DNA of 33,748 bases from Chloroflexota bacterium (GCA_016210395.1 JACQUI010000102.1:1-33748); one strand, 5' to 3'. Shown: positions 2,543 through 31,702, counted from the first letter of the stretch. A program made the numbers and translations. Notes: generated by a model from the sequence alone, not told the origin.

Positions 2543-2656
2543 TGAGGACCTCTCTTGCGTTGTGTGAGCGGCGGCAGTGTAGCATAAGGTGTGCGGGAAT
2601 GAAACCTGCCGACGGTTGCCGTCGTACTACTGACATGACGCTACAAGGAGGCTCCC

Positions 2657-3573: not shown

Positions 3574-3663
3574 TGCTCTATGCTGATGCTGCCGCTAGGA
3601 AGGTGCGCTTCCGGCCTGACCCTGTAAGGCGCCGCCGTACCGGCGGCGATGTTCTCGCAGCGT

Positions 3664-4080: not shown

Positions 4081-4164
4081 TCTACTCCCATGCAACCAAA
4101 GCCACAATATGTCTTTGCGTGCAATAGGAGGGCCGAAGGTAATGGGAGCGCGACGCCCTCGCAC

Positions 4165-4193
4165 TTGTACGGGTTTCGTCACACTGGTACAAT
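4165..4193 (+). promoter_or_regulatory. Putative sigma70-type promoter for the DUF1445/DUF4392 pair
   Basis: TTGTAC (4165-4170), 17-nt spacer, TACAAT (4188-4193), with TG at 4185-4186 (extended -10). It lies about 26 nt upstream of the ATG at 4219. Confidence 0.4.
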
Positions 4194-4218
4194 CGTCCGA
4201 AGGCAAAGGAGCTTCCTT

Positions 4219-16800: not shown

Positions 16801-19800
16801 GCTGGAAAGCACGCTGACCGACTCCGAGCTGATCCTGACCAACGCCGGCGAGGACACCGCCCCAGGCGCGCCCATCGCCAGCGTGCGCCTGCCCCAGGGC
16901 ACGTCCTTCACCAACGAGGCAGGCGAAGGCATTGAGACGCTGCTGCCGCCCAGGATGGTCACCCTCCCGGACGACCTCCAGGCCAAAGCGCCCGACGCCG
17001 TGGGCATCAAGCTGGGCCTGTCCGAAGGCCGCGTCCTGCTCTCCACTCCCGTGGTCTTGCAGGTGAAGATCACCCGCGCCGCCGCAAGCACGCCCACCCT
17101 CTTCCTGCAGCTCGACGAGACTACCTTCGAGGAGGCGGGCATCGAGGCCACCGTTGACGGCATCGCCTACAAGCCGGGCGGCATTGTGCTCAGCAAGACG
17201 CTGTTGCCGAATGGCCAGGCGGAGTTCCTTATGGCCGCCCTGCTCACCCACTTCTCCGAGTTCGTGGCCACGGACGAAGACCTGGTGCCGGATGTGCCGC
17301 CCAGCACGCCACAGAACGTCGAGGCCACGGCGGGCAACGCTCAGGCCACCATCACGTGGGAGGCCCCCGCCTCCGATGGCGGCGCGGACATCACGGGCTA
17401 CACCGCCACGTCCAACCCCGGCGGCAAGACCGCCACGGTGGGCGCGGGCACGTTCACGACGAACGTCACCGGCCTGACCAACGGCACGGACTACACCTTC
17501 AGCATCGTGGCGACCAACAGCGCCGGCGACAGCGCGCCCGCCACAACCGACGCGGTAACACCTGCCACCACGCCTGGGGCACCCACGGGCGTCACCGCCG
17601 GCATCGGCAACACGCTGTCCATCATCTCGTGGTCGGCCCCGGTGTCCAACGGCGGCTTCGCCATCACTGGCTTCAAGATCACCAACGACAAGAACGCCAC
17701 GACGCTCCTGGTCGGCAGCGGCAGCACCGCCGCCACATTCACCGGCCTGACTAACGGCGTGACCTACACCTTCACCGTCAGGGCCATCAACGCCCTGGGC
17801 GACGGCGATACGGCCGCGTCCAACGCCGTCACGCCCGCCGCGCCGACGGCAAAGCCCGGCGCGCCCACAGGCGTGACGGCGGCTGTAAAGGGGCCCACCA
17901 GCCTGGAGGTGACGTGGACGCCTGGTCCCCAGGGCGGCAGCCCCATCAAGGGCTACATCATCACGTCCGATCCACCCAGCACGAACAGCCCGCTGTCCGT
18001 TGACGGCGACGCGACGTTGACCAGCGCCGTCGTGACCGGCCTGACGCCCGGCGCCACCTACACCTTCACCGTGCAGGCCGTCAACGACGTCGGCGCCAGC
18101 GACCCCTCGGCAGCTTCGACAGGCGTCAAGGTCCCCGGCGCAACCCCTGGCGCGCCCACGGGCGTCAGCGCCACGGCGGGCAACGGCCAGGCGACCGTCA
18201 ACTGGACTGCGCCGTCGCCGGGCGATTCGGCCATCACCAAGTACATCATCAGAGCCTCCAGCGGGGTCGAAAAAGAGACGCCCGCACCCGCCACGTCCTT
18301 CGTGTTCACCGGCCTGACCAACGGCGTGAGCTACACCTTCACCGTCAAGGCCGTCAACGACGCAGGCGCAGGCGCGGCCTCCGCCGCTTCCAATGCGGTC
18401 GTGCCGACGGCTGGCGGAGGCGGCGGCGGTGGTGGCGGCGGTGGCGGTGGCACAACGCTCACCGCTCCCGCTGCGCCGACCGGCGTAGCGGCCACGGCAG
18501 GCAATGCGCAGGCGGTCGTTACATGGACGCCCCCTGCCTCCGACGGCGGTTCGCCCATTGTCGGCTACACCATCGTGTCCGATCCCGGCAACATCACCGC
18601 AGTGGCAGGCGCAGGCGAGACGACAGCGATCGTTACGGGCCTGCAAAACGGCGTGACCTACACCTTCTGGGTGATTGCCACCAACTCCATCGGCAACAGC
18701 TTGCCTTCCGGCAAGTCCGGCGCCGTCATGCCCATCGCGCCTACGCTGCCGCCGGTGCTCCCCAACAACACGGGGTCCTCCAGCGCAACGCTCAACTTCG
18801 AGCCCACCGTCAGCCAGACGGCCACGGCCAAGACCACCTCCGGCGCGGCGGTGGAAATCGTTGCCGGCGGCCAGATTGACCTGGCCGTGAAACCCGACGG
18901 CAGCAACGTGCTGGTACTGCCCATCAAACTGGCTGCCGGCGCATCTCTCGACCAGTTCCGCGACGACGCCTCCGGCGTGTCTGTCCAGGGCAACGTTGTG
19001 CGGATTATCGTGAAGGACGCCCAGGGCCAGCCCAGCATCTACCTGGAAGCCAAAGTGAAGTCTGTCACCGGGACCGGCAATACTGCTGAGGTCCAGCTCC
19101 AGGACTTCCGCCTGAAGACCGCAGAGCAGCGCAAGGTGGTCAACGGCGACGTAGGCACGGCCTCCGTGACGTTTGACGCCGCCCTGGTTGACGTGGACAT
19201 CGCGCCCGATGCAACCATCACCGTCACGATTCAAAACGCGCCGGACGCCCCCGACAAGACCGCCTTCGACGCCGCAGCCGCTGCAGGCAACGCCAAGGTA
19301 ACCGCCTATGCCTATGCTGCAAAGGTCGAGAAGGTCAAGCTGGCCGACGAGACCGACATCGGCCAGGCCTTCGTCGAAATGAATGCCGGCAAGGGCTTCG
19401 TGGACAAGTACGGCCTGAGCAAGGTCAAGATCATGCGCAGGGCCGATGGCGGCGCGGTGAGCACCCTTGCCACTGAAGTCAAAGGCTCGGACGACGAGGG
19501 CAACGTGACCTTCCGCGCCACTTCGCCCAAGGGCCTCTCCGTCTTCGCCCTGGTGGTGCAGGAGACGCTGCCTCCGCCGCCCACGCCGACGCCCACGCCA
19601 GGGCCGACGGCTACTCCTACGCCGACGCCACCTCCGGCAACGGCCACGCCTACGCCGACGCCTGGTGTTGGCACGCCGACGCCAACCCGCACGCCGGCGC
19701 CCGGCACGGTCACGCCGACGCCGACGCCAACCGTGGTTGGGCCGCGAACGCCGACGCCGACGCCCACACCGACGCCTGGTGTTGCTACGGCTACGCCGAC

Positions 19801-20472: not shown

Positions 20473-21399
20473 ATGGCCTCCCAGGCCACGCAGTCAGAGA
20501 GCGACGCCCAGCTTCCGGCTGCCCTGGAAAACCATGCCGCAGACCTGGCCGGCCAAGCGGGCGCCCTGCTCCTGGACTACTTCAACCGCCCTCTTGAGAC
20601 CACCTACAAGTCCAAAGGCCACGGCGATCCCGTCACCGATGCCGACAAGGCAGCGCATGAGCTGCTGGTCAAGGGCATCCAAGCCCGCTTCCCAGAGCAC
20701 GGCGTCCTTTCAGAAGAGGGCGCGGGCACTCCCCCAGCCGGCGCAACTCCCTACCTCTGGGTCATTGACCCTCTGGACGGCACGACAAACTACCTCAACC
20801 GTTTCCCCCTCTGGGGCGTCTCCATCGGCGTGCTGCGCAATGGCGTTCCCGTCGCCGCCGCCCTCTACCTCCCTGCGCTGGCCAGCCTGGGCAGCCCCCT
20901 GCTGCACGCCCGCGCCGGCGGCGGCTCCCACATCGGCGATGCGCCCCTTGCGCTGGCTTTCGGCGCGGAGACCTCCGACCGCCGTCTGACGACGATGCCC
21001 GCCTACTTCCGCGGCCAGTTCCGCATGTCGAAAACACTTCGCCGCAACATCGGCGAGGTGCGCAACACCGGCAGCATCGCATGCGAGCTGGCGCTGGCTG
21101 CCACAGGCTCCCTCCAGCTTGCCGCGTTCGGCTCGCCGAAGATATGGGATGTAGCTGCAGGCGCGCTCATCGTCAATGAGGCGGGCGGACGGGTCATGGT
21201 GCGAACGCGGAGGAGCCGCTGGAAGCCCTTCGAGTCGTTCCTTGATCCCGGCGCCGGCCTTCCCCGCGACGGCAACCTGGCCAAGTGGGGCGCCGGCCTG
21301 CTGGCGGGCGCGCCCGCTGCCGTAGACGCTGCCGCCTCCGGCCTTCGCCCGCGCCTCGGCCTGGTACGGTGGTTCCGCCGCCTTCTCGACAGGCGGTAG
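20473..21399 (+). CDS. Inositol monophosphatase family protein (SuhB/HisN-like phosphatase)
   Basis: Metal-binding motifs SEE, WVIDPLDGTTNY and WDVAAG. It starts 3 nt after the queF stop. Confidence 0.88.
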   Translation: MASQATQSESDAQLPAALENHAADLAGQAGALLLDYFNRPLETTYKSKGHGDPVTDADKAAHELLVKGIQARFPEHGVLSEEGAGTPPAGATPYLWVIDPLDGTTNYLNRFPLWGVSIGVLRNGVPVAAALYLPALASLGSPLLHARAGGGSHIGDAPLALAFGAETSDRRLTTMPAYFRGQFRMSKTLRRNIGEVRNTGSIACELALAATGSLQLAAFGSPKIWDVAAGALIVNEAGGRVMVRTRRSRWKPFESFLDPGAGLPRDGNLAKWGAGLLAGAPAAVDAAASGLRPRLGLVRWFRRLLDRR

Positions 21400-21403
21400 C
21401 AAG

Positions 21404-21453
21404 GCCGTCCTCCCGTAGGAGCGACGCATGCGTCGCTCCTACGGGAGGACGGC
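21404..21453. terminator. Perfect 50-nt palindrome between convergent genes (probable bidirectional terminator / REP-like hairpin)
   Basis: GCCGTCCTCCCGTAGGAGCGACGCA|TGCGTCGCTCCTACGGGAGGACGGC: the two 25-nt halves are exact reverse complements. It sits between the stop at 21397-21399 (+) and the stop at 21466-21468 (-). Confidence 0.6.
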
Positions 21454-21465
21454 TCGGGTCTGTCC

Positions 21466-22446
21466 CTACCTGAACCGGGGCAGCACCTCGCGGCCCATCA
21501 TGCGAATGGCGGCCAGCGCCTCTTTCTGGCCCATGCCCGGCCACTGCATGCGCATGATGATGGTCTCGACGCCCAGCGCCTCGTAGCGCCGGACCTCCTG
21601 CTCGCATTGGTCTGGGTCGCCGATGATGAACCGGTCCTTCAGGATCTGCTCGAAGGGCACGTCAATCCTGTCGGCCTGGGGCAGGTCCCGCGCATGCCCC
21701 AGCGACGCGCGGTCTGCGTACAGCGCCTCCACCGAGGGCCGGACGGTCTCCATGGCCTTGCGCTTGCTGCCGGCCACGTACGCCTCTCTCCACGCCCAGA
21801 TCACCGGCTGCTTGCCTGCCTTCTGCGCGGCCTCCTTGAACAGCGCCGCCTGCTTCTCGATGGTCGGGTACGTGGCGCGTGTGCTGATGAGCCAGCCGTC
21901 CGCAATGCTGGGCGCGCGCTGGATGCCGGGGTCGGCGTTCGCCGCCACAAGGATGCGCGGGTACGGCCGGCTGGCGGGCCTGGCGATCGGCCTGTCCACG
22001 TCCACCTGAACGTATTTGCCGTGGTAGCTCACCACGTCTTGCGCCCAGAGCTGCTTCATCGCCTCCAGCGTCTCCAGGAACCTCCCCAGCCGCTGCTTGG
22101 CAGGGATGCCGAACGCGTCGAACTGGAACTCGCGCCACCCTTGCGCCACCGCCACGGTCAGCTTGCCTCCGCACATCATGTCCAGGGTAGACAGCTCCTC
22201 GGCCAGCACAATGGGGTGCTCCAGGGGCAGCAGGAACAGCGTCCCCAACGCCATGCCCGGGATGTGCGCCGTCAGCCGCGCCTGCAGGAGCGTGCCTTGC
22301 AGCCCGCGTCCAAGGTGGCCGCCACTGACCCACACAGCGTCGAAGCCGGCCTCCCGCGCGGCCTGCGCCTTCTTGATAGAGTCCCTCAGCACCTCCTCCA
22401 TGGACTGCTCCGGCAGCCCGCCAAAGAGCAAGAGCCCGAAGTTCAT
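21466..22446 (-). CDS. LLM-class (luciferase-like) flavin/F420-dependent oxidoreductase
   Basis: 326-aa ORF MNFGLLLFGG......A..AGFD.VWV..H. Size and pattern fit the luciferase-like monooxygenase family. AAGGAGG lies upstream of the ATG at 22444-22446. Confidence 0.8.
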   Translation of the reverse strand: MNFGLLLFGGLPEQSMEEVLRDSIKKAQAAREAGFDAVWVSGGHLGRGLQGTLLQARLTAHIPGMALGTLFLLPLEHPIVLAEELSTLDMMCGGKLTVAVAQGWREFQFDAFGIPAKQRLGRFLETLEAMKQLWAQDVVSYHGKYVQVDVDRPIARPASRPYPRILVAANADPGIQRAPSIADGWLISTRATYPTIEKQAALFKEAAQKAGKQPVIWAWREAYVAGSKRKAMETVRPSVEALYADRASLGHARDLPQADRIDVPFEQILKDRFIIGDPDQCEQEVRRYEALGVETIIMRMQWPGMGQKEALAAIRMMGREVLPRFR

Positions 22447-22522
22447 GTCGCCTCCTTCAGAGCCTGTCGTATCAGCAACGCCTCACCTTCACCGTATTCT
22501 GAGGCTGCGCTTACTTTACCAA

Positions 22523-22720
22523 CCGTCACGTCTGCCCTCCCCCCGCCACCGCCTTCCAGAGGATTCGTTCCTCCCAAAAAATAAAACGAATCCAGATACA
22601 AACCCAAGCCAATAAAGGCCCCCAAGAAGCGCAAAAAACGAATCCCCGCCCCTCCTCTCCTCCCCCCGCCGACTGACCTCTTCCGCGCGGCAGGCCGCCG
22701 GCCCTGCCGTCCGTCACGTC
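22523..22720. repeat. Intergenic block of short exact direct repeats arranged in mirrored order, with polypurine G-tracts on the minus strand
   Basis: CCGTCACGTC at 22523-22532 and 22711-22720. CCTCCCCCCGCC at 22536-22547 and 22659-22670. AAAACGAATCC at 22583-22593 and 22635-22645. GGATTCGTT (22561-22569) pairs with AACGAATCC (22585-22593). Confidence 0.7.
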
Positions 22721-22757
22721 CCTGCAACAATTCCGCTGCGCTCCCCCGTCTGCCAGC

Positions 22758-23546
22758 CTATGTCCGCCCCGTTCGCGCCGCCCGCACCTTCGCCAGCGCA
22801 TCCGCCGATGCGCCGCGCAGTAGCGTGGGCACGTGCGTGTACAGGTAGCCCACGCCCTGGGCAGCGTACTGCGCGATCACATCCGGCGCGCCCACACAGC
22901 CGGCGGTGCGGCCCGCCGCCATGATGGCAGCCAGCGCATGTTGCACCGCCTGCCGCACCTCCGGGTGGTTCGGCTCCTTCAGGTGGCCCAGCGAGCCGGA
23001 CAGGTCCGTCGGCCCGACGAAGAAGACGTCCACGCCCTCTACGCGCAGAATGTCCTCCAGGTTGCGCACCGCCTCTGCATCCTCGATCTGGGCGCAGACC
23101 AGCGTCTCGTTGTTCACCCAGTCCACGTACTCGCTGCGTGAGGCGCGCAGCTCAAAGGTGGCGCTGCGCAGGGCCGCCGCGCCCATGCCTCGCGCTCCCA
23201 ACGGCGGGTACTTGATGGCTTCCACCGCCCGCTTGGCGTCGTCGGCCGTCCGGATGTGCGGCATCTGCGCGCCCATTGCGCCACGGTCCAGCAGGCGCGG
23301 AAGCTCGTCCGACCCCGCAGACGGCGGACGTACGATGGGGATGACGCCCGCCAGCTCAGCGGCCATGCACATGTGCTCCACCGCCTCTGCGTTCATGGGG
23401 CCGTGCTCGCAGTCAATGAGCACCCAGTCGAACCCGCAGTACCCGATGATCTCCACCAGGTGTGGAGAAGGGAACGTCAGTGAGACGCCGATGGCCGGCT
23501 GGCCGGCCTTGAGCTTGGCCTTCATGGTGTTGGCGCGCATAGTCAC
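22758..23546 (-). CDS. HpcH/HpaI-family 2-keto-3-deoxy-acid aldolase
   Basis: KAKLKAGQPAIGV....PSP..VEI.G..GFDWVLIDCEHGP and DVFFVGP.DLS are family-typical. The ORF-track start is GTG at 23544-23546. In-frame ATGs at 23538-23540 and 23523-23525 are alternatives. Confidence 0.85.
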   Translation of the reverse strand: MTMRANTMKAKLKAGQPAIGVSLTFPSPHLVEIIGYCGFDWVLIDCEHGPMNAEAVEHMCMAAELAGVIPIVRPPSAGSDELPRLLDRGAMGAQMPHIRTADDAKRAVEAIKYPPLGARGMGAAALRSATFELRASRSEYVDWVNNETLVCAQIEDAEAVRNLEDILRVEGVDVFFVGPTDLSGSLGHLKEPNHPEVRQAVQHALAAIMAAGRTAGCVGAPDVIAQYAAQGVGYLYTHVPTLLRGASADALAKVRAARTGRT

Positions 23547-23707
23547 CGCCGGAGCAAGATGCCGCCTAGTCTAGCGCATTGCGTACGTCTTCTCCAGGGT
23601 CCATACCTCTGCTCTAGATACTAGCTCTAGTACTTTCAGATAAGCCTGTGCTCAAATGGAGGCCGTAGTTATGGGTACGTATTTAGTAGTAACGAGGCTC
23701 AAGAACG

Positions 23708-25534
23708 ATGACTACGTACAGAGCAGTCTTGCAACCCCTCCGCGGCAATCTGTTCCTGCGCTCTGCTTTGCTGGCAGCCGCAGTCATCATCGTGGTCGGG
23801 GCCGGGATCCTGTATGCCATCCGGTTCCCAATCGAAGAGCGCATCCGCTGGGAAGCAACCGATGATGCCTCCATCAAGGTCCAATCGCTCGCTCGAAACC
23901 TTCTCGATCCCCACATGCTTTCTGGACCGCTTTCCGGGCAGGAGTATGAGAGGGTGGACCAGGCGGTGAGGGCATACGTCCTCACCGACCGTGTGAGACG
24001 GGTCAAGATATGGAACCCCGAGCTGGAAGTGATCTATTCTTCTCTTCCCTCCCAGATGGGCAGTGTAGTTTCCGACAACGATGAGCTTCATGAGGCCCTG
24101 GAGGGAAAGACGATTTACGAGTTGGGGACGCCAAAGGAAAGCCCGGATGACCTGGAGTTCGGCGCCGTCATAGAAGCCTACTTCCCCGTTTCCCTGCAGC
24201 CAGGCGCTCCCCCAGACATCGTTGCCGAAGTGTACATCCCGTACGCCCCCTACGCGGCAATCGTCGCTTCAATCCAGCGAATTGTCCTCGTGGCCGCTGC
24301 CCTGGCCGGACTCATCGTGTGCCTCGCCCTGTATTTCGCCTATCGGACGGGGTGGAAGGCAATCAACCGGGAGAAGAACATTGCCAGTCAACGCTCCGCT
24401 GAGATGGACAAGCTCTACCGGATCGTAGCCACAGAGCGCGGCACCCTTGCGGCCATCCAGGAGAGCATGGTGGAAGGGCTGCTTGTCCTCGACCGCTGTG
24501 GCAAGGTGGCCTACCACAACCAGGCTCTGGAGCAGCTCATCGGCCTCAGCGATGGGCAAATCATTGGGTTGCCGCTCAGGCAGGTCTTGGAAGGCAGGAG
24601 TCAGCTTTTCTTTGAGGACAACAAGACCTGTGACGCCCTGCTGGAGGCTTTGCAAAAGTGCCCCGGGGGACCGCTCACCATCGAAGTAGTGATGATATCC
24701 CCCCGCCATCGCGTGCTAAGCGCAACGGCCTTTCCCATCCCAAGAGACGGGCAAGAGCCGATGTCGGGCCTCCTCCTGCGCGACATTACCGAGGAGCGTG
24801 AAGCTGAGCAACGCCGCGACGCCTTCGTCTCCGTGGCCTCCCACGAGTTGCGCACTCCTATGACCGCCATTGTGGGTTTTGCCGAGCTCTTGCGCGACCG
24901 CGATCCCGCGCCTGAGGTGCGCAGGGAGTGGCTCCACTACGTGGTCCGCGAAGGCCAGAGACTCACAGCAATCGTGGAGGACATGCTGAACGTCTCCCGT
25001 ATCCAGTCTGGGAAACTGACCGTGGACCTGGCCCGTGTGGATATTCGCGATATCTTCCGAACCGTCGCCGGCGCCTTGCAGCCGACCACGGCAAACCACA
25101 GGATCGTGATTGAGGCGCCACAAAGCATCCCCCCGGTCATCGCCGACAAGGACAAGCTGATGCAAGTCATCATCAACCTGGTGTCCAACGCCATCAAATA
25201 CAGCCCCAACGGCGGCGACGTCATCCTCAACGCGACCAGCAATTCTGAGAGGGCAGAGCTTGTTCTCAGCGTTGCCGACCAGGGGATAGGCATCGCGCCC
25301 GAAGACCGGGCGCGCCTCTTCTCCACATTCACACGCATCCGGCGGCCCGAGACCGAAGGCATACGGGGAACGGGACTTGGCCTCTACATCGTGAAAGGCC
25401 TGGTGGAGCTCATGCTCGGACGCATCTGGCTTGACAGCGAAGTCCACAAAGGCTCCACGTTCTACGTCGCCCTCCCTGCCATCATCCCGGCGCAGCCAGT
25501 CGCCAGAGCATCGGGAGCAACTGTTACAGGATAG
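23708..25534 (+). CDS. Membrane sensor histidine kinase (two TM segments, PAS-like region, HisKA, HATPase_c)
   Basis: H-box SHELRTPMTAIVGFAELL. N-box NLVSNAIKYSP. G-boxes DQGIGI and GTGLGLYIVKGLV. TM segments LLAAAVIIVVGAGILYAI and LVAAALAGLIVCLALYFA. Confidence 0.92.
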   Translation: MTTYRAVLQPLRGNLFLRSALLAAAVIIVVGAGILYAIRFPIEERIRWEATDDASIKVQSLARNLLDPHMLSGPLSGQEYERVDQAVRAYVLTDRVRRVKIWNPELEVIYSSLPSQMGSVVSDNDELHEALEGKTIYELGTPKESPDDLEFGAVIEAYFPVSLQPGAPPDIVAEVYIPYAPYAAIVASIQRIVLVAAALAGLIVCLALYFAYRTGWKAINREKNIASQRSAEMDKLYRIVATERGTLAAIQESMVEGLLVLDRCGKVAYHNQALEQLIGLSDGQIIGLPLRQVLEGRSQLFFEDNKTCDALLEALQKCPGGPLTIEVVMISPRHRVLSATAFPIPRDGQEPMSGLLLRDITEEREAEQRRDAFVSVASHELRTPMTAIVGFAELLRDRDPAPEVRREWLHYVVREGQRLTAIVEDMLNVSRIQSGKLTVDLARVDIRDIFRTVAGALQPTTANHRIVIEAPQSIPPVIADKDKLMQVIINLVSNAIKYSPNGGDVILNATSNSERAELVLSVADQGIGIAPEDRARLFSTFTRIRRPETEGIRGTGLGLYIVKGLVELMLGRIWLDSEVHKGSTFYVALPAIIPAQPVARASGATVTG

Positions 25535-25633: not shown

Positions 25634-27163
25634 CTAGATCCGCCGGTCTTTGCCGGCAAAGGCCTCCGCAACAGCACGGCGCTGCACCTTGCCCGTGGCG
25701 GTGCGCGGTATCTGCGGGACGACATAGATGGAGCGCGGCGCTTTGAAGTCGGCCAGCCGCTCCCGGCAATGCTTGATCAGCTCCGCCTCGGTCACCTGGC
25801 CGCTCAGGACGACCGCCGCCGCCGGCTCCTCGCCGTGCGTTGGGTGAGGGACGCCGAACGCCACAGCCTCCGCCACAGCGGGATGGCTCAGCAGCGCCTC
25901 GTCTATCTCTACGGGCGCTATTTTCTCGCCGCTGCGGTTAATCAGCTCCTTGATGCGCCCCACCAGGGACAGATAGCCGCCCGCGCCAACCACGCCCTCA
26001 TCGCCTGTGCGGAACCACCCGTTCACGAACGATGAAGCATTGGCTGCAGGATTGTCCTCATAGGCCGAGATCACGTTGGGGCCTTTGATAACAACCTCAC
26101 CCTGAAGACCTTCAGGAAGCAGATTCCCCTCCCCGTCCATGATGCCGATCTCCACCCCTGTTGCCATGCCGACGCTTCCCGGCACGCGCCTGCCCGGCGG
26201 CAGCGGATTGGACGCCATCTGGTGCGCGGCCTCGGTCATGCCGTAGGCTTCCAGCACCGGCACGGCAAACCGCGCCTCCATCTCGTGCATGAGCCCGGCA
26301 GAGAGCGATGAGCTGCATGAGCGCACGAACCGCAGGCTCCCCAGCAACGAAGGGTCAACGCTGTTGCTCCTGGCCCGGGCGACCAGCGCCTGGTGCATGG
26401 CGGGTACAGCGGTGAACCACGTGGCCTGGTAGCGCTGGACCACCGGCCAGAAGCCCATAGGGTTGAAGCGCGAGGGCAACACCACTGTGCCGCCGGAGGC
26501 AAGGGTTGCCAGCGTGGACGCCACGAGGCCGTGGACGTGGAAGAGCGGCATGACGCACAGGGACACGTCTTCGGGCGTCAGGTTGTAGGTGCGGATGATG
26601 TTGCCGACCGAGGCCATGACGTTGCGGTGGCGCAGCGGCACGCGCTTGGGCCTGCTGGTGGTGCCGCTGGTGTGCAGCACCAGGGCCACGTCTTCTGCCT
26701 CGGCGAACCCATCGGAGGACCAGCCGTTCCGGTGCGCAGCGGTCTCCAGCCTCACTTCGCCCTCGGCGTCCATGCCTGCGACAACATGAATCGCTCCCGG
26801 CGGCAGGGCCTGGACTGCGGCCTCGGCCCCATCCTTGGGCGTGATGAGTACCTTGGCCCGCGTGTCCTCCAGGTAGAAGGCGAACTCCTGGGACTTGTAG
26901 GCCGGGTTCAGCGGAGCGGCAGTCCCCGCCGTGGCGGCTGCAAGAAAGAGGATGATGGCTTCAGGTGTGTTGGGCGTCACCAGGGCTACCCGGTCGCCCC
27001 TACGCACCCCAAGGGCCTTGAGGTCCTCGGCCACCCGCTGGACCTGTGAGCGGAGCGATCCGTAGGTGATCGCCGGGCCATCGGGTGACTGGATTGCCGT
27101 GTGGGAGGCCACGCTGGTTTCCAGCAACGCCAGCAGCGATTGAGCGGAAGCGGTGATAGTCAT
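25634..27163 (-). CDS. AMP-dependent acyl-CoA ligase, oxalate--CoA ligase (AAE3/Pcs60)-like
   Basis: LHTSGTTSRPKRVPL, MPLFHVHGL, WFTAVPAMHQ, LRFVRSCSSSL, VPVLEAYGMTEAAHQMASNPLP, GWFRTGD and GYLSLVGRIKELINRSGEKIAPVEID. These closely track the plant AAE3 / yeast Pcs60 sequences as I remember them. GGGAGG lies upstream of the ATG. Confidence 0.85.
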   Translation of the reverse strand: MTITASAQSLLALLETSVASHTAIQSPDGPAITYGSLRSQVQRVAEDLKALGVRRGDRVALVTPNTPEAIILFLAAATAGTAAPLNPAYKSQEFAFYLEDTRAKVLITPKDGAEAAVQALPPGAIHVVAGMDAEGEVRLETAAHRNGWSSDGFAEAEDVALVLHTSGTTSRPKRVPLRHRNVMASVGNIIRTYNLTPEDVSLCVMPLFHVHGLVASTLATLASGGTVVLPSRFNPMGFWPVVQRYQATWFTAVPAMHQALVARARSNSVDPSLLGSLRFVRSCSSSLSAGLMHEMEARFAVPVLEAYGMTEAAHQMASNPLPPGRRVPGSVGMATGVEIGIMDGEGNLLPEGLQGEVVIKGPNVISAYEDNPAANASSFVNGWFRTGDEGVVGAGGYLSLVGRIKELINRSGEKIAPVEIDEALLSHPAVAEAVAFGVPHPTHGEEPAAAVVLSGQVTEAELIKHCRERLADFKAPRSIYVVPQIPRTATGKVQRRAVAEAFAGKDRRI

Positions 27164-27306: not shown

Positions 27307-27335
27307 ATTATAGTAAGCTATGAGGTATTTGTCAA
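27307..27335 (-). promoter_or_regulatory. Consensus sigma70-type promoter reading toward the acyl-CoA ligase gene
   Basis: The minus strand reads TTGACA (27335-27330), 17-nt spacer, TATAAT (27312-27307). Both hexamers are perfect consensus. A plus-strand TTGACA at 27298-27303 forms an inverted repeat with it. Confidence 0.6.
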
Positions 27336-27411: not shown

Positions 27412-28155
27412 ATGGTCAGACCACCAGACCAGCAGACCACAACGCTGGACCCCGCCATCACAGCGGTGCACCGCACACGCCTCTTCGAAAGCGTGGTGGC
27501 GCAGTTGCGGGAGCTTATCCGGGACGGCAAGCTCCTGCCGGGGCAGCGCCTTCCCTCTGAGCGGGAGATGGCCCAGCGGTTCCAGGTAAGCCGCGCCTCG
27601 GTGCGCGAGGCCGTCCGCGCCTTAGAGCAAGAGGGCCTGGTGGCGACCCGCTCCGGCGCGGGGACATTCGTGAGCGAGGAGGGCTTTGATGCGGCGGTGG
27701 ATGTCCTGGCAAAGCGATTGCTGGCCGGACGCGAGGTCGTCGCAGATATCCTGGAGCTGCGGTTGCTCCTGGAGCCGCAGATAGCGGCACTGGCTGCCCA
27801 GCGGGCAACGGCGGGGGACAAGGAGCAGATGGCGGCTATTCTGAGGGAGCAAGAGGCGCAGGTGGCGGAGGGAGAGACCGGGGCCGCCGCCGACGTGGCA
27901 TTTCATTCCACCGTTGCTTCCGCCTCGCACAACCAGGTCCTGGAACGGCTCAGCGCAACGCTCGCCGACCTCCTGTCCCCCATCAGAGACGAAGGCCTCC
28001 AGACGCCGGACCGCTCCTACAGCTCCCTGCGCACCCACAGGGCAATCCTTCAGGCAATAGAGGCAGGAGACCAGGAGGCCGCCCGCTTGGCCATGCAAGA
28101 GCACATCGAGGGCGTGGAACGCGAGCTTTCGCAGGACTCGCCGGGGCGCCAGTAG
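27412..28155 (+). CDS. GntR-family transcriptional regulator, FadR subfamily (FCD C-terminal domain)
   Basis: Winged-HTH segment LPSEREMAQRFQVSRASVREAVRALEQEGLV..R.G.GTFV followed by an all-helical C-terminal domain. The ORF track starts at TTG 27373. I prefer the in-frame ATG at 27412, but the start is uncertain. Confidence 0.85.
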   Translation: MVRPPDQQTTTLDPAITAVHRTRLFESVVAQLRELIRDGKLLPGQRLPSEREMAQRFQVSRASVREAVRALEQEGLVATRSGAGTFVSEEGFDAAVDVLAKRLLAGREVVADILELRLLLEPQIAALAAQRATAGDKEQMAAILREQEAQVAEGETGAAADVAFHSTVASASHNQVLERLSATLADLLSPIRDEGLQTPDRSYSSLRTHRAILQAIEAGDQEAARLAMQEHIEGVERELSQDSPGRQ

Positions 28156-28195: not shown

Positions 28196-28259
28196 GTAGG
28201 GGCAGACCCGCGTGTCTGCCCAGTCCCATGGGTAGGCGGATACGTCGGTCCGCCCTTAC
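28196..28259. repeat. Two tandem GTAGG-type GC-rich hairpins between the regulator and the oxidoreductase operon
   Basis: GTAGGGGCAGAC-CCGCGT-GTCTGCCC (stem 28200-28207 / 28214-28221) and GTAGGCGGA-TACGTCGG-TCCGCCCTTAC (stem 28235-28240 / 28249-28254). Confidence 0.6.
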
Positions 28260-28317: not shown

Positions 28318-29481
28318 TTGACAACATTCGCAGTAGAAGTCGTGTACCGGGGCATTTTCCAGCGGACCCTTTCCCGGAACATCTGCCGGGGCATCGTCCT
28401 GGCTGCCAGGAAAGAGGGCAAGATTGGGACGGCGTTCGGCCGGTACGGAGACTCCCCGGAGAGGAACGGCATTCCGGCCAAGTATTTCGCGGTCGTCGCC
28501 GACGACCAGCTCGCGCTGGAGGAGACCCTTGCCAGGTACGAGCCAACGGAGGTGGACGTCACCATCTGCGTTGACGACACCATGTGCAAGGGCATCGAGT
28601 CCTGGGCCTGGTACGGCCTCCAGCCCATCAACGCCCTGACCAAACAGGGCGGCACGCTCCTCGTCGTCTCCAAGCAGGCTCCGGAAGCCCTGCTGGAGGA
28701 CATCCACCGCAAGGACGTTCCCTATGAGGTGGGCATCATCAGCGGGCCCGCAAGCTTCTCCGGCCTGTGGGTCTACAAGGACGACCATACCGATGTGCGC
28801 ATCCTGGGCGCCCTGGCAAAGGTGTGCCCCGGCCTTGCAGGCATGGACTCCTATGAGAAGGTCATCCAGGACGTGTGGAAGAGCGACCCCAAGGTCAAGT
28901 CGGCGCGGCGCTCCCACGACCTCACCTTGCGCCGACCCATCGAACCGGCGGAAGGCAACACCTCCACGCCATTCTCGTTCTCCAAGCCCGGCTGGACTGA
29001 GATGCGCCAGGCCCTCACCATCACCGGCGTCCCCCAGGGCGGCGGGTTCCGCGGAGGCACGGAAGGCTTCCAGGCTGCCCGCAGCGAGGTGTTCAAGAAA
29101 TACAGCACCCGCACTATGCGCCCCGTTATTAACTTCCAAACATGCACCAAGTGCACCCTCTGCTGGCTCCAGTGCCCGGACTCCTGCTTTGACGTGACGC
29201 CGGACAGCCACTACGACGCCAACCTGGAGGCCTGCTGCGGCTGCGGCGTTTGCGCAGACGTGTGCCCGGTGGACAAGTGCGTCACCATGGTCAACGAGGC
29301 CCAGTTCAACGACAACGCCAGCCAGTACGAGTGGTTCCAGCGGGACCAGGCTGGCTACCTGCGATGGCTGGACGGCGTTATCACCCGGCAGGACGCAGAG
29401 GCCCGCTCCCATGGTCTTCACCACTGGGGCCAATACAAAGAAGAGATAGCTGCCGCGGCAGCATCGGAGGGTAGCAGATGA
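28318..29481 (+). CDS. 2-oxoacid:ferredoxin oxidoreductase, fused gamma + delta (2x[4Fe-4S]) subunit
   Basis: Two ferredoxin motifs: CTKCTLCWLQCP and CCGCGVCADVCP. The N-terminal domain resembles the OFOR gamma domain but lacks the usual GxGGQG stretch. The start is set at TTG 28318, 9 nt after AAAGGAGGG (28301-28309); the ORF-track start is 28228. Confidence 0.8.
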   Translation: MTTFAVEVVYRGIFQRTLSRNICRGIVLAARKEGKIGTAFGRYGDSPERNGIPAKYFAVVADDQLALEETLARYEPTEVDVTICVDDTMCKGIESWAWYGLQPINALTKQGGTLLVVSKQAPEALLEDIHRKDVPYEVGIISGPASFSGLWVYKDDHTDVRILGALAKVCPGLAGMDSYEKVIQDVWKSDPKVKSARRSHDLTLRRPIEPAEGNTSTPFSFSKPGWTEMRQALTITGVPQGGGFRGGTEGFQAARSEVFKKYSTRTMRPVINFQTCTKCTLCWLQCPDSCFDVTPDSHYDANLEACCGCGVCADVCPVDKCVTMVNEAQFNDNASQYEWFQRDQAGYLRWLDGVITRQDAEARSHGLHHWGQYKEEIAAAAASEGSR

Positions 29482-30704
29482 CAACGAGGACTGAAGCCCC
29501 AATCGCAGAGCGCGAGGAGCTCATCAGCGGCAGCGAGGCCATCGCAAATGCCTGCGTCCTGGCTGACATTGACGTGGTCACGGCCTACCCCATTCGCCCC
29601 TACGACACCGTCATGCAGTACCTGTCGAAGGTTATCGCTGACGGGGACCTGAGCTGCGAGTTCATCGTCGCCGAGAGCGAGCACTCCCAGTTCGAGATCG
29701 TCAAGCACGCCTCCGCCGTCGGCGCGCGCACGTTCGTCGGCTCCAGCGGCGTGGGCTGGTTCTACGCCCTGGAGGCCATCGCCGTTACCGCAGGCCTCCG
29801 CCTGCCGGTGGTCGCGCTGGTGGGCAACCGCGCCCTGGACGACCCCGGCGCCTTCGGCTGCGAGCACAACGACGCCCTGGCGGTGCGCGACCTGGGCTGG
29901 ATGATGAACTGGATCTCCACCGCCCAGGAGGCGCTGGACACCGCCCTCATCGCCTGGCGTGTGGCGGAAGACCCCCGCGTCTTCCTCCCCTGCGCCATCA
30001 GCGCCGACGGCGCGTTCCTGACCCACTCTCAGCAGATCGTCCGCGTGCCGGACAAGCGCCTGGTCCAGCGGTTCCTGCCCCCCTACAACCGGGGCGATCT
30101 TCAGCTACATCCCGATAACCCCATCACCATCGCCCCGCAGGTCAACGAGGACTGGCTCATGGAGATGCGCAAGCAGACCGACGCCGCCATGCGCCGAGCC
30201 TGGGATGTCATCATCGAGGCCAACGACGACTTCAACCGCATCTTCCACCGAGACTCCACACCCTTCACCGAGGAGTACATGACCGAAGACGCCGACGTGA
30301 TCCTCGTGGGCGTCGGCACGCTGGCCCTGCCCATTAAGGTGGCGGTACGGCGGCTTCGTGAGCAGGGCCACAAGGTCGGCTTCCTGCGCATCAAGTGGTT
30401 CCGCCCCTTCCCAATGCCGGAGGTGCAGAAGGCACTGGCCAACGCAAAGGCCGTGGGCGTCATAGACCGGGACTACTCCTTTGGCTCACCCATGCACAGC
30501 GGAGTCCTGGTCCATGAGATACGGTCGGCGCTGTACGACCTGCCCCGGCGCGTGCCGGTGGTGAGCTTCATAGCGGGCCTGGGCGGGCGCGAGATCACGC
30601 AGCCCTATGCCAGGGAGATGTTCGACACGACAGGACAAGTAGCGCAGACGGGCAAGTCCGATGGCCAGACCCACTGGATCGGTGTACGGGAGAAGCAGGA
30701 ATGA
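29478..30704 (+). CDS. 2-oxoacid:ferredoxin oxidoreductase alpha subunit (oxalate-oxidoreductase-like YPIRP variant)
   Basis: SGSEAIA......D.DVVTAYPIRPYD and SGVG are typical of OFOR alpha, but with Arg in place of Thr in YPITP (nt 29586-29600). The start overlaps the upstream stop (ATGA at 29478-29481). Confidence 0.88.
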   Translation: MTTRTEAPIAEREELISGSEAIANACVLADIDVVTAYPIRPYDTVMQYLSKVIADGDLSCEFIVAESEHSQFEIVKHASAVGARTFVGSSGVGWFYALEAIAVTAGLRLPVVALVGNRALDDPGAFGCEHNDALAVRDLGWMMNWISTAQEALDTALIAWRVAEDPRVFLPCAISADGAFLTHSQQIVRVPDKRLVQRFLPPYNRGDLQLHPDNPITIAPQVNEDWLMEMRKQTDAAMRRAWDVIIEANDDFNRIFHRDSTPFTEEYMTEDADVILVGVGTLALPIKVAVRRLREQGHKVGFLRIKWFRPFPMPEVQKALANAKAVGVIDRDYSFGSPMHSGVLVHEIRSALYDLPRRVPVVSFIAGLGGREITQPYAREMFDTTGQVAQTGKSDGQTHWIGVREKQE

Positions 30705-31702
30705 CCACCACGCAGAACCTACCCCAAATTCGCGGCGTCCATAATGCTCCGCTGGCGGAGTTCTACACCTCAGGCCACCGCACCTGCCAGGGGTGTGAGT
30801 CGGCCCTGGTCATGAAGCTCATGGTGAAGGCGGCCGGCCCACGGACCATCGTCCTGGGCAGCACCGGCTGTATGTACGTGGCCAACACCACCTACTACAG
30901 CACCCCCTGGGTCGTGCCATGGATGCACACCCAGCTCGGCTCTTCCGGTTCGGCTGCCACAGGCACCGCCGCCGCCCTGAAGGTCCTGATGAAAAAGGGC
31001 AAGATGAAGGAGGAGCCCATCAACGTCATCTCCTTCTGCGGTGATGGCGGCGGCGCGGACATGGGCCTCTCGGCCATTTCCGCCTCGATGACCCACTCGC
31101 AGTACAACCACCTGGTGCTCATGTACGACAACGAGTCGTACGCGAACACGGACATCCAGGTGTCCGGGTCCTCGCCCTGGGGCGCCAACACCAGCTTCAG
31201 CACCCCCGGCAAGGTCCGCCGCATCATGAACGACCGGTGGAAGAAGAACACCGCCGCCATGCTGGCCCACGGGCATCCCAAGTCCCGCTTCGTCGCCACG
31301 GGCTGCCCTTCCTACGCCCTGGACCTGATGAATAAGGTGCGAAGGGCGCTGACCCTGGGCGGGCCGACGTTCATCCACAGCTTTGACCCCTGTCCCAAGG
31401 GATGGGACTACGACCCCAAGTTCTCTCACGAGCTTGGCATCATGGCTGTGGAGACAGGCCTCTGGGTGCAATGGACCATCGAGGACAACGTCCTGCGCTA
31501 CGACGGCCCATCCCGCATGATCGCCTCCGGCAGGCGGAAGCGGAAGCCCATCGTAGAGTATCTGAAGCGCCAGGGCCGCTTCGCCCATTTCACAGAGGAA
31601 GACATCACGTACTTCCAGTCCCAGGTGGACGAGATATGGGACAAATGGGGCACGCCGGGCGTCTCCCAGGTACGGCTCGACGTCAAGGGTGACAGAGCGT
31701 AG
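30701..31702 (+). CDS. 2-oxoacid:ferredoxin oxidoreductase beta subunit (TPP-binding)
   Basis: CQGC cluster ligands. TPP motif CGDGGGADMGLSAISASMTHSQYNHLVLMYDNESYANT. ATGA overlap with alpha at 30701-30704. Confidence 0.9.
   Translation: MTTTQNLPQIRGVHNAPLAEFYTSGHRTCQGCESALVMKLMVKAAGPRTIVLGSTGCMYVANTTYYSTPWVVPWMHTQLGSSGSAATGTAAALKVLMKKGKMKEEPINVISFCGDGGGADMGLSAISASMTHSQYNHLVLMYDNESYANTDIQVSGSSPWGANTSFSTPGKVRRIMNDRWKKNTAAMLAHGHPKSRFVATGCPSYALDLMNKVRRALTLGGPTFIHSFDPCPKGWDYDPKFSHELGIMAVETGLWVQWTIEDNVLRYDGPSRMIASGRRKRKPIVEYLKRQGRFAHFTEEDITYFQSQVDEIWDKWGTPGVSQVRLDVKGDRA

What the first reader, a model, noticed from the sequence alone, without database searches (positions are those of the whole stretch)
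28318..31702. Three-gene OFOR whose alpha subunit has the oxalate-oxidoreductase-type Arg substitution (YPIRP)
Seen in sequence:
- Three translationally coupled genes (ATGA overlaps at 29478 and 30701) encode gamma+delta fusion, alpha and beta subunits.
- Alpha reads TAYPIRPYD (nt 29586-29600), where the pyruvate, 2-oxoglutarate and 2-oxoisovalerate enzymes I know read YPITP. A second Arg (GNRAL) lies exactly 78 residues downstream.
- The gamma domain reads VVYRGIFQRTLS where the usual GxGGQG segment sits.

Established knowledge, from memory of the Moorella thermoacetica oxalate oxidoreductase work: Arg31-alpha replaces the PFOR Thr and, with Arg109-alpha (also 78 residues apart), binds the extra carboxylate. 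That enzyme is CoA-independent and has an alpha / gamma(III+V) / beta subunit layout like this one.

Inference: this is an OOR-like enzyme, or a relative acting on another dicarboxylic 2-oxoacid. It sits in a GC-rich genome that does not look like an acetogen, next to an oxalate--CoA-ligase-like gene.
Basis: partly seen in the sequence, partly recalled or inferred. Interest (0 to 1): 0.65.

Follow-up and report, generated by a model that had tools for sequence, protein, structure and literature searches.

The report
Oxalate-oxidoreductase-like enzyme, unrecognised sister clade
Three coupled genes in a groundwater Chloroflexota contig encode a thiamine- and iron-sulfur-dependent enzyme most like the oxalate oxidoreductase of Moorella; it belongs to a large sister clade that databases label pyruvate oxidoreductase and that probably oxidises oxalate or a similar small acid to CO2 without coenzyme A.

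Summary
Three translationally coupled genes encode a domain III+V fusion (387 aa), alpha (408 aa) and beta (333 aa).

- **Closest relative.** For all three subunits the best solved structure and the best NCBIfam model are the Moorella thermoacetica oxalate oxidoreductase (OOR).
- **Key residues.** Arg40 of YPIRP aligns without gaps to OOR Arg31-alpha. The domain III glycine-rich motif is absent, as in OOR.
- **Not an OOR orthologue.** Identity is 45/44/24 %, and all three OOR equivalog cut-offs are missed.
  - The switch-loop Asp116-alpha is Ala in 82 of 82 clade members.
  - The beta NTG motif reads NTD.
  - The fusion subunit carries an extra ~55-residue C-terminal tail.
- **Phylogeny.** Arg-type enzymes are monophyletic (100 % bootstrap). 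The window's clade (100 %) is sister to OOR proper. At least 582 species genomes hold a relative, and the closest 80 are mostly Dehalococcoidia/SAR202 MAGs.
- **Context favours oxalate.**
  - An oxalyl-CoA-synthetase homologue lies next to the genes, but only here and in one close relative.
  - Oxalate/formate antiporter equivalogs flank the genes in alphaproteobacterial members and in a second Arg-type clade.
  - Many Dehalococcoidia instead carry a lactate/glycolate-oxidase-like gene downstream.
- **Regulation.** A GntR/FCD regulator with a conserved operator lies upstream.

Likely function: CoA-independent oxalate (or glyoxylate-type) oxidation to CO2 with ferredoxin reduction. This is untested.

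The parts
28318..29481 (+). Fusion subunit, 387 aa: OFOR domain III (about residues 1-210), a poorly modelled linker, domain V (two-cluster ferredoxin) and a C-terminal extension.
   Evidence: The profile aligns end to end only with the OOR 'delta' chain 5c4i_B (positions 6-332 against 15-315, E 3e-21). Foldseek ranks OOR chains first (E 2e-18), then PorC gamma subunits 2raa and 9bt4_F with TM 0.73-0.77. Pfam detects only Fer4_21. Homologues are annotated '(4Fe-4S)-binding protein'.
28339..28374 (+). VVYRGIFQRTLS: a degenerate strand-1/helix-1 loop where canonical gamma subunits carry the glycine-rich GxGGQG motif.
   Evidence: It aligns to OOR ITVWARGVVMNKDARD. V[VI]YRG[IV]FQ[KR] is found in 74 of 82 clade members. 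The position of GxGGQG in canonical gamma subunits is taken from memory, not from a tool result.
29143..29268 (+). Two CxxCxxCxxxCP motifs (Cys276-286 and Cys306-316) that would bind the medial and distal [4Fe-4S] clusters.
   Evidence: All Cys are invariant in alignment A2.
29314..29478 (+). C-terminal extension of about 55 residues (333-387), predicted helical. OOR ends before it.
   Evidence: The OOR chain ends at profile position 332. The model shows helices 336-361 and 372-384. Homologues are 382-404 aa long.
29478..30704 (+). Alpha subunit, 408 aa (domains I and II).
   Evidence: 5c4i_A E 1e-102, compared with M. acetivorans PFOR alpha at 3e-69. Identity to OOR alpha is 45 %. NF045791 scores 403 bits against a cut-off of 500. 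Pfam finds POR_N and PFOR_II.
29586..29600 (+). YPIRP motif. Arg40 (nt 29595-29597) is equivalent to OOR Arg31-alpha.
   Evidence: It is invariant in 82 of 82 clade members. The role of the motif in OOR is described in PMC5020499.
29829..29876 (+). Arg118 (the arginine kept across the OFORs compared) followed by the switch-loop equivalent RALDDPGAFGCEHNDA. Ala125 (nt 29850-29852) replaces OOR Asp116-alpha.
   Evidence: In the alignments this position pairs with Ile of the PFOR 'S-I-F-G' and 'N-I-W' stretches.
30701..31702 (+). Beta subunit, 333 aa (domain VI). It carries the TPP-binding GDGG...DNESYANT motif and Cys29, Cys32, Cys57 and Cys231 for the proximal cluster.
   Evidence: 5c4i_C E 3e-82. 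Identity to OOR beta is 44 %. NF045792 scores 339 bits against a cut-off of 590.
31151..31153 (+). Asp151-beta in YANT-D-IQ. OOR, M. acetivorans PFOR and the P0127 sister clade have Gly here (NTG).
   Evidence: (81 of 81 clade members).
27412..28155 (+). GntR/FadR-type regulator with an FCD domain. The likely true start is ATG 27412; the ORF call begins at TTG 27373.
   Evidence: Pfam finds GntR and FCD. The best NCBIfam matches are NanR, LldR and PdhR, all below cut-off. It lies directly upstream of the OFOR genes in 46-47 of 81 loci.
27413..27423 (.). Palindromic operator TGGTCAGACCA, overlapping the regulator's start codon.
   Evidence: This is the only exact copy in the window. There are 37 exact copies in 1.53 Mb of related loci, and every one lies at the start of the GntR gene.
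25634..27163 (-). Oxalate-CoA ligase (oxalyl-CoA synthetase) homologue, 509 aa, divergently transcribed.
   Evidence: 6qjz E 1e-132, 5ie0 3e-129, 8aff 1e-121, compared with malonyl-CoA synthetase at 5e-72. The adjacency is shared only with L001.
27307..27335 (-). Perfect sigma-70 consensus promoter-like site (TTGACA-17-TATAAT) pointing at the ligase gene.
   Evidence: 12 of 12 matches; shuffles give a mean of 0.6 sites.

Best explanation
The three genes encode a heterotrimeric (probably dimer-of-trimers) 2-oxoacid:ferredoxin oxidoreductase of the oxalate-oxidoreductase lineage. It would bind TPP at the alpha/beta interface, a proximal [4Fe-4S] cluster in beta, and two further clusters in the ferredoxin domain of the fusion subunit.

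Arg40-alpha replaces the Thr of YPITP, and together with the conserved Arg118-alpha it makes a positively charged pocket for a small anionic substrate. Domain III lacks the glycine-rich CoA motif. The reaction is therefore inferred to be CoA-independent: TPP attack, decarboxylation, two one-electron transfers through the clusters to a ferredoxin, and release of the second product as CO2.

The most likely physiological substrate is oxalate, giving 2 CO2 and 2 reduced ferredoxin.

The enzyme is not an orthologue of the Moorella enzyme. It belongs to a separate clade in which the switch-loop Asp is Ala and other acidic residues appear near the active site (Asp43-alpha, Asp122-alpha, Asp151-beta). 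The 'bait-and-switch' step must therefore work differently.

Expression is probably controlled by the upstream GntR/FCD repressor through the TGGTCnGACCA operator.

Shown here: homology, residue equivalence, phylogeny, cofactor ligands, gene context and the operator. Inferred: substrate, CoA independence, direction of reaction and mode of regulation.
For: - OOR is the best solved-structure match for alpha (1e-102), beta (3e-82) and the fusion subunit (3e-21 with a profile). The fold search ranks OOR chains first.
- OOR equivalogs are the top NCBIfam hits for all three subunits.
- Arg40 aligns to Arg31-alpha and Arg118 to Arg109-alpha without gaps.
- YPIRP is invariant in 82 of 82 clade members.
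- The Arg-type clade has 100 % bootstrap support and separates from 49 YPITP-type representatives.
- No Pfam POR domain is found, and no canonical gamma subunit is detected by sequence even at E<=10.
- All Fe-S and TPP motifs are present.
- Oxalate context:
  - The adjacent ligase is most like oxalyl-CoA synthetases.
  - MFS transporters next to the OFOR genes in L061, L045 and L030, and in the sister-clade locus L082, pass the curated oxalate/formate antiporter cut-off (419-549 bits against 335).
- An FprA-like flavoprotein lies in four proteobacterial loci and would offer a ferredoxin-to-NADP outlet. The FprA assignment is mine, from its N-terminal sequence; its NCBIfam hits are only weak matches to glutamate-synthase small-subunit and NAD(P)-binding models.
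- PMC12337175 and PMC5020499 state that OOR is the one OFOR that needs no CoA, and that Arg31-alpha binds oxalate.
Against: - All three subunits score below the curated OOR equivalog cut-offs: 403 of 500, 339 of 590 and 97 of 230 bits.
- Identity to OOR is only 45, 44 and about 24 %.
- Asp116-alpha, named with Arg31-alpha as key to the OOR mechanism (PMC5020499), is Ala in the whole clade. Ala also enlarges the R-group pocket, which could fit a larger anion.
- The ligase adjacency is found in only 2 of 82 loci.
- In 39 Chloroflexota loci the conserved downstream gene is an FMN-dependent 2-hydroxyacid oxidase most like L-lactate oxidase (1e-122) and glycolate oxidase (1e-86). The regulator and its operator resemble LldR and PdhR. 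This context would also fit glyoxylate, or even pyruvate, as the substrate.
- No expression data or biochemistry exists. Only DNA runs from groundwater hold the sequence.
Confidence: 0.6

Rival explanations
1. The same Arg-type, probably CoA-independent enzyme acts physiologically on the product of a neighbouring FMN-dependent 2-hydroxyacid oxidase. The substrate would be glyoxylate (from glycolate), or another small polar or anionic 2-oxoacid such as mesoxalate, hydroxypyruvate or oxaloacetate, rather than oxalate itself.
For: - An FMN_dh gene lies directly downstream on the same strand in 39 of 82 loci. Its best solved-structure relatives are L-lactate oxidase and glycolate oxidase.
- The regulator resembles LldR, PdhR and GlcC, and its operator resembles the PdhR/LldR box (the box consensus is from memory).
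- Ala125 in place of Asp116 or Ile enlarges the pocket.
- From memory of Pierce et al. 2010 (not readable here), OOR itself oxidises a few other 2-oxoacids without CoA.
Against: - The FMN_dh linkage is seen only in Chloroflexota-labelled loci, and many of these are close relatives, so shared ancestry may inflate the count.
- The window and L001 lack this gene.
- Members from other phyla, and the sister clade, carry oxalate/formate antiporter equivalogs instead.
- Glycolate oxidases are known to oxidise glyoxylate on to oxalate (from memory). The FMN_dh context is therefore also compatible with oxalate as the OFOR substrate.
Confidence: 0.27
2. It is an ordinary CoA-dependent pyruvate:ferredoxin oxidoreductase, as the databases name it, working with a lactate oxidase and an LldR/PdhR-like regulator in lactate/pyruvate catabolism.
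For: - Source annotations read 'pyruvate ferredoxin oxidoreductase'.
- PorA_Arch is the second-best NCBIfam hit, at 344 bits.
- The lactate-oxidase-like neighbour and the LldR-like regulator fit this reading.
Against: - The substrate-binding Thr of YPITP is Arg in every clade member.
- The clade separates from all YPITP enzymes with 100 % bootstrap support.
- PorA and PorB cut-offs are missed by wide margins: 344 of 550 and 259 of 405 bits.
- The gamma part has no recognisable POR domain or glycine-rich CoA motif, and it resembles only the OOR fusion subunit by sequence.
- The source names are automatic annotations, not tested functions.
Confidence: 0.06
3. The enzyme works mainly in the reductive direction. 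It would fix CO2 onto a C1 or C2 acyl unit, or make oxalate or glyoxylate from CO2 using reduced ferredoxin.
For: OFORs are reversible in principle (PMC12337175). No direct evidence was obtained here.
Against: - Antiporter, ligase and 2-hydroxyacid-oxidase neighbours all point to catabolism.
- Without a CoA site there is no activated acyl donor.
- From memory, the CO2/oxalate couple is very negative.
Confidence: 0.03

Closest known systems
Oxalate oxidoreductase of Moorella thermoacetica (EC 1.2.7.10; PDB 5c4i, 5exd, 5exe; NCBIfam NF045790-NF045792)
   Same: - Three subunits with the same domain split: I+II, III+V fusion, VI.
- YPIRP with Arg at the Arg31-alpha position, and the conserved Arg109-alpha equivalent.
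- Domain III without the glycine-rich motif.
- Three [4Fe-4S] sites and the TPP motif.
- It is the best sequence and fold match for all three subunits.
   Different: - Identity is 45, 44 and about 24 %, and all equivalog cut-offs are missed.
- The enzyme sits in a sister clade, not within the OOR clade.
- Switch-loop Asp116 is Ala and Pro113 is Asp; Thr34 is Asp; the beta NTG motif is NTD.
- The fusion subunit has an extra tail of about 55 residues.
- The host is a GC-rich groundwater Chloroflexota rather than an acetogenic Firmicute.
Four-subunit pyruvate:ferredoxin oxidoreductase PorABCD (e.g. Methanosarcina acetivorans, PDB 9bt4)
   Same: - Homologous alpha (E 3e-69), beta (2e-54) and delta (4e-12) subunits.
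- The same cofactor motifs.
- The gamma fold is recognisable by structure comparison, with TM about 0.77.
   Different: - PFOR has YPITP (Thr) and an Ile at the Ala125 position.
- PFOR has separate gamma and delta genes. From memory, its gamma carries the canonical GxGGQG motif.
- PFOR depends on CoA.
Uncharacterised FPIRP-type OFOR clade (representative P0127, locus L082)
   Same: - An Arg-type motif, and the same RALDDPG loop start.
- An oxalate/formate antiporter equivalog lies next to the genes.
- It is the nearest sister of the window's clade, with 80 % bootstrap support.
   Different: - Identity is 47 %.
- Gamma and delta are separate genes.
- Asn, not Ala, sits at the Asp116 position.
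- The beta subunit keeps NTG.
- It has an AsnC-type rather than a GntR-type regulator.
Oxalyl-CoA synthetases AAE3 / Pcs60 / LsOCS (PDB 5ie0, 8aff, 6qjz), the comparator for the neighbouring gene
   Same: The neighbour 25634-27163 matches them over its full length, at 410-446 bits. The next enzyme class scores about 247 bits.
   Different: - The characterised examples are from plants and yeast.
- The NCBIfam best hit is the 'FadD7 family', below cut-off (460 of 650 bits).
- Substrate-binding residues were not checked here.

Membership tests
Oxalate oxidoreductase (OOR, EC 1.2.7.10) | Subunit layout: alpha (domains I+II), a domain III+V fusion, and beta (domain VI). | tested here: met
   The three coupled genes have exactly this split.
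Oxalate oxidoreductase (OOR, EC 1.2.7.10) | YPIRP motif: Arg31-alpha in place of the Thr of YPITP. | tested here: met
   Arg40 aligns to Arg31-alpha without gaps. It is invariant in 82 of 82 clade members. The role of the motif is described in PMC5020499.
Oxalate oxidoreductase (OOR, EC 1.2.7.10) | Switch-loop Asp116-alpha of the 'bait-and-switch' mechanism. | tested here: not met
   This position is Ala125 in RALDDPGAFG, in 82 of 82 clade members.
Oxalate oxidoreductase (OOR, EC 1.2.7.10) | Scores above the curated NCBIfam equivalog cut-offs (NF045791 alpha, NF045792 beta, NF045790 delta). | tested here: not met
   The scores are 403 of 500, 339 of 590 and 97 of 230 bits. These are still the top-ranked models.
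Oxalate oxidoreductase (OOR, EC 1.2.7.10) | Groups phylogenetically with the characterised enzyme. | tested here: inconclusive
   It lies inside the 100 %-supported Arg-type clade that contains MtOOR, but in a separate 100 %-supported sister clade. The tree is neighbour-joining only.
Oxalate oxidoreductase (OOR, EC 1.2.7.10) | Domain III without a CoA site, and CoA-independent catalysis. | tested here: inconclusive
   The glycine-rich motif is absent. No Pfam POR domain is found, and only the OOR fusion subunit aligns by sequence. CoA independence itself needs an assay.
Oxalate oxidoreductase (OOR, EC 1.2.7.10) | Oxidises oxalate to 2 CO2 with ferredoxin or viologen reduction. | not testable with these tools
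   Only contextual support is available: the ligase and the OxlT equivalogs.
2-oxoacid:ferredoxin oxidoreductase superfamily | TPP-binding GDG...N motif, four Cys for the proximal cluster, two CxxCxxCxxxCP motifs, and the conserved carboxylate-binding Arg. | tested here: met
Pyruvate:ferredoxin oxidoreductase (the database annotation) | YPITP Thr, a canonical gamma subunit with GxGGQG, and scores above the PorA/PorB cut-offs. | tested here: not met
   The motif has Arg, not Thr. No canonical gamma is detected by sequence. The scores are 344 of 550 and 259 of 405 bits.
GntR/FadR-subfamily FCD regulators (upstream gene) | An N-terminal GntR winged helix-turn-helix, a C-terminal FCD domain, and a palindromic TGGT-N-ACCA-type operator. 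| tested here: met
   Pfam finds GntR and FCD. The operator TGGTCnGACCA lies at the gene start in 37 loci and in the window. The effector is unknown.

The most novel reading that the evidence does not exclude
A large, mis-annotated clade of oxalate-oxidoreductase-like enzymes gives Dehalococcoidia/SAR202 and assorted Proteobacteria, Acidobacteriota and Nitrospinota a CoA-free route from oxalate to CO2. The route may also serve glycolate-derived glyoxylate or oxalate, and it yields low-potential electrons. At least 582 species genomes hold a relative of the enzyme. The clade would use a catalytic 'switch' different from the Moorella enzyme: Asp116 is lost and Asp43-alpha, Asp122-alpha and Asp151-beta are gained. 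An added C-terminal tail on the ferredoxin domain might adapt the enzyme to non-acetogenic, possibly oxygen-exposed, lifestyles.
Probability: 0.4. Interest if true: 0.65.

Novelty: new variant of a known kind. Interest (0 to 1): 0.55.

Why it matters
As far as I know, oxalate oxidoreductase has been characterised from a single acetogen. The only solved structures under that name are its three (5c4i, 5exd, 5exe), and only 33 papers in the searched library mention the enzyme at all. None links it to Chloroflexota.

If this sister clade really oxidises oxalate or glyoxylate, three things follow:
- A second oxalate-degrading pathway besides Frc/Oxc would be widespread in groundwater, soil and ocean Dehalococcoidia/SAR202. 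These groups matter for the turnover of small organic acids, and their gene inventories currently list these genes as 'pyruvate ferredoxin oxidoreductase' or '(4Fe-4S)-binding protein'.
- The natural Asp116-to-Ala variant, with its compensating acidic residues, would be a ready-made test of the proposed bait-and-switch mechanism.
- The conserved GntR operator would give a handle for finding the inducer.

If the enzyme instead proves to be a glyoxylate or broad-range 2-oxoacid enzyme, it would still define a new substrate class within the OFOR family.

Tried and rejected
- **OOR papers.** I tried to read the primary OOR papers (PMC4498597, PMC4720323, PMC5381805, PMC3003350) and the M. acetivorans PFOR paper (PMC11956543). 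None is held. OOR active-site details beyond Arg31, Arg109 and Asp116 therefore rest on PMC5020499 or on memory, and I dropped one recalled residue (a 'Glu154-beta') because it did not fit the chain numbering.
- **Frc/Oxc route in the window.**
  - The TPP enzyme at 310-2064 and the two downstream of L001 are AHAS/Xsc-like, with no oxalyl-CoA decarboxylase model among the top hits.
  - CoA-transferase III fusions recur about 9 kb away in some loci, but that family is generic.
- **Conserved ligase-OFOR linkage.** Rejected: it occurs in only 2 of 82 loci.
- **Shared operator.** I looked for an operator common to the ligase and the OFOR operon. Only the single GntR site at 27413 was found. The palindrome at 28200-28221 is not conserved in other loci.
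- **Structure model.** The model of the fusion subunit is only moderate (pLDDT 67, linker 217-264 below 50). I used it for fold assignment only. I did not model alpha, because a monomer without TPP and beta adds nothing to a gap-free 45 % alignment.
- **Expression.** No RNA runs hold the sequence.
- **Ordinary PFOR.** Considered and rejected on motif, phylogeny and domain III evidence.

Full report
**Observation**

A script confirmed every sequence statement.
- The ATGA overlaps lie at 29478 and 30701.
- YPIRP is alpha residues 37-41, which is nt 29586-29600.
- Arg40 and Arg118 are 78 residues apart.
- VVYRGIFQRTLS is residues 8-19 of the first gene.

The first gene starts at TTG 28318, behind a GGAGG. 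The window is 61-69 % GC. The products are 387, 408 and 333 aa.

**What the proteins are**

Against all solved structures, the best match of each subunit is the Moorella thermoacetica oxalate oxidoreductase (OOR, 5c4i).
- Alpha scores 1e-102; the next match, M. acetivorans PFOR, scores 3e-69.
- Beta scores 3e-82; the next scores 2e-54.
- The first gene matches the OOR 'delta' chain, which is a domain III+V fusion.

A profile of 32 homologues of the first gene aligns end to end with that OOR chain (positions 6-332 against 15-315). It finds no canonical gamma subunit even at E<=10. An AlphaFold model (pLDDT 67) has OOR chains as its top Foldseek hits (2e-18). PorC gamma subunits follow at TM 0.73-0.77, so the N-terminal ~210 residues are a domain III fold.

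Pfam sees only a ferredoxin domain in this protein, and public records call its homologues '(4Fe-4S)-binding protein'. All cofactor motifs are present: two CxxCxxCxxxCP motifs, four Cys in beta, and GDGG...DNESYANT.

NCBIfam ranks the three OOR equivalog models first, but all fall below their curated cut-offs: 403 of 500, 339 of 590 and 97 of 230 bits.

**Residues**

Arg40 aligns without gaps to OOR Arg31-alpha, and Arg118 to Arg109-alpha. PMC5020499 states three things:
- The YPIRP Arg binds oxalate.
- Arg109-alpha corresponds to the arginine that the Sulfolobus OFOR keeps (its Arg344a), while the other active-site residues differ.
- Arg31 and Asp116 drive the bait-and-switch mechanism.

The pyruvate enzymes aligned also keep an arginine at the Arg109 position.

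The switch loop differs. OOR reads R-TLDPPG-D116-FGEEHTDA, whereas the window reads R-ALDDPG-A125-FGCEHNDA. In the alignments this position pairs with the Ile of the PFOR loops.

Across 82 clade sequences, YPIRP and RALDDPGAFG are invariant. All 81 beta subunits read YANT-D-IQ where OOR, PFOR and the sister clade read NTG.

A scan for clade-discriminating positions returned 20 sites. They include D43/T34, G116/A107, N117/D108, D122/P113, A125/D116 and N131/T122.

The fusion subunit also has a helical tail of about 55 residues that OOR lacks.

**Phylogeny and distribution**

The neighbour-joining tree used 67 sequences, 387 columns and 100 bootstraps.
- All [YF]PIRP enzymes form one clade (100 %), apart from 49 YPITP-type representatives.
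- The window's clade (100 %) is sister to an FPIRP clade represented by P0127 (80 %).
- MtOOR and P0129 branch next.

Identity to OOR alpha is 45 % and to OOR beta 44 %.

The species-level genome scan found at least 582 genomes with a relative. The best 80 (67-75 % identity) are mostly Dehalococcoidia/SAR202 MAGs. Some are labelled Acidobacteriota, Alpha- or Gammaproteobacteria, Nitrospinota, Armatimonadetes or Acetothermia. Bin labels on short contigs may be wrong.

The window's nearest relative (90 %) is a Chloroflexi MAG. Reads holding the window come from groundwater metagenomes.

**Context**

The three genes are adjacent in all 81 related loci. Other neighbours vary by lineage.
- **Regulator.** A GntR/FCD regulator sits directly upstream in 46-47 loci.
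- **Operator.** The exact palindrome TGGTCnGACCA occurs 37 times in 1.53 Mb of these loci, always at the start of that regulator gene. The window's only exact copy (27413-27423) overlaps the in-frame ATG at 27412.
- **Ligase.** The divergent ligase is most like plant and yeast oxalyl-CoA synthetases and has a perfect sigma-70 consensus site. It is adjacent only in the window and in L001.
- **Antiporters.** In the alphaproteobacterial loci L061, L045 and L030, and in the sister-clade locus L082, an MFS transporter next to the OFOR genes passes the curated oxalate/formate antiporter cut-off (419-549 bits against 335).
- **Flavoprotein.** Four proteobacterial loci also carry a flavoprotein that I read as FprA-like from its N-terminal sequence; its NCBIfam hits are only weak matches to glutamate-synthase small-subunit and NAD(P)-binding models.
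- **2-Hydroxyacid oxidase.** In 39 Chloroflexota loci an FMN-dependent 2-hydroxyacid oxidase lies downstream on the same strand. Its best matches are L-lactate oxidase (1e-122) and glycolate oxidase (1e-86).

**Interpretation**

The enzyme is an Arg-type OFOR of the OOR lineage with a domain III that lacks the CoA motif. PMC12337175 notes that OOR is the only OFOR that does not need CoA.

Three independent contexts point to oxalate: the ligase here, OxlT equivalogs in another phylum, and an OxlT equivalog in the sister clade. The FMN_dh context suggests glycolate or glyoxylate. That is compatible with oxalate if the oxidase carries glyoxylate on to oxalate (from memory, glycolate oxidases do this), but it also allows glyoxylate as the direct substrate.

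The loss of Asp116 and the gain of nearby acidic residues mean the Moorella mechanism cannot simply be transferred to this enzyme.

My estimates:
- About 0.85 that this is a CoA-independent Arg-type enzyme for small anionic 2-oxoacids.
- About 0.55-0.6 that oxalate is the main substrate.
- About 0.06 that the PFOR annotation is right.

**Novelty**

No held paper connects OOR with Chloroflexota or SAR202, and 'YPIRP' appears in an OFOR context only in PMC5020499. I class the finding as a new variant of a known kind. It is a large, mis-annotated sister clade of OOR with a different switch loop, a different domain tail and different hosts.

Noticed in passing
window 27413-27423; loci L001-L081 at the start of the GntR gene: The palindrome TGGTCnGACCA (extended AATTGGTCnGACCACTT) occurs 37 times in 1.53 Mb, and every copy lies at the regulator gene upstream of the OFOR genes. 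In the window it overlaps the probable ATG start at 27412, which suggests autoregulation and possibly a leaderless transcript.
   Followed up: partly
L066:13335-14444 and 38 other loci (for example L058, L070, L071): An FMN-dependent 2-hydroxyacid oxidase/dehydrogenase gene lies directly downstream of the beta gene on the same strand in many Dehalococcoidia loci. Its best solved-structure hits are L-lactate oxidase 7f22 and glycolate oxidases. The window lacks it.
   Followed up: partly
L061:7440-8732, L045:710-1939, L030:14596-15864, L082:457-1752: MFS transporters that pass the curated oxalate/formate antiporter equivalog cut-off lie next to Arg-type OFOR genes. This is seen in alphaproteobacterial MAGs and in the FPIRP sister clade.
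   Followed up: yes
L061:12584-13993; also L030, L051, L017: A flavoprotein that I read as FprA/adrenodoxin-reductase-like lies beside the OFOR genes in proteobacterial loci. It is a possible ferredoxin:NADP+ outlet for the electrons. The assignment rests on its N-terminal sequence and on weak NCBIfam hits only.
   Followed up: no
window 31151-31153 (beta Asp151); 29604-29606 (alpha Asp43); 29841-29843 (alpha Asp122): These acidic residues are specific to the clade. They appear where OOR has Gly, Thr and Pro, alongside the loss of Asp116-alpha. This may be a relocation of the catalytic 'switch' acid.
   Followed up: partly
window 28200-28221: A near-perfect palindrome, GGGCAGACCCG/CGTGTCTGCCC, lies between the regulator and the first OFOR gene. 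No T-run follows it, and it is not conserved in other loci. Its function is unknown.
   Followed up: partly
window 7898-19957 (+): A giant 4019-aa ORF with at least 16 fibronectin type III repeats and other Ig-like domains. It is presumably a surface or adhesion protein.
   Followed up: no
window 310-2064 (-) and 2088-2693 (-): An AHAS/sulfoacetaldehyde-acetyltransferase-like TPP enzyme lies next to a 201-aa ORF. About 60 residues of that ORF match the C-terminal end of the same enzyme family, so it may be a gene fragment or remnant. Similar TPP enzymes recur near the OFOR genes in 26 related loci.
   Followed up: partly
window 3649-5013 and 5077-5934 (+): A pair of genes with D-glutamate cyclase and D-glutamate-cyclase-like C-terminal domains.
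   Followed up: no
window 20473-25534: Four genes lie between the giant ORF and the ligase: an inositol-monophosphatase-family gene, an F420/LLM-class oxidoreductase, an HpaI/GarL-type 2-oxoacid aldolase, and a PAS histidine kinase.
   Followed up: no
L082:3972-5073: In the FPIRP sister clade the gamma and delta parts are separate genes (216 and 144 aa). In the window's clade and in OOR they are fused.
   Followed up: partly
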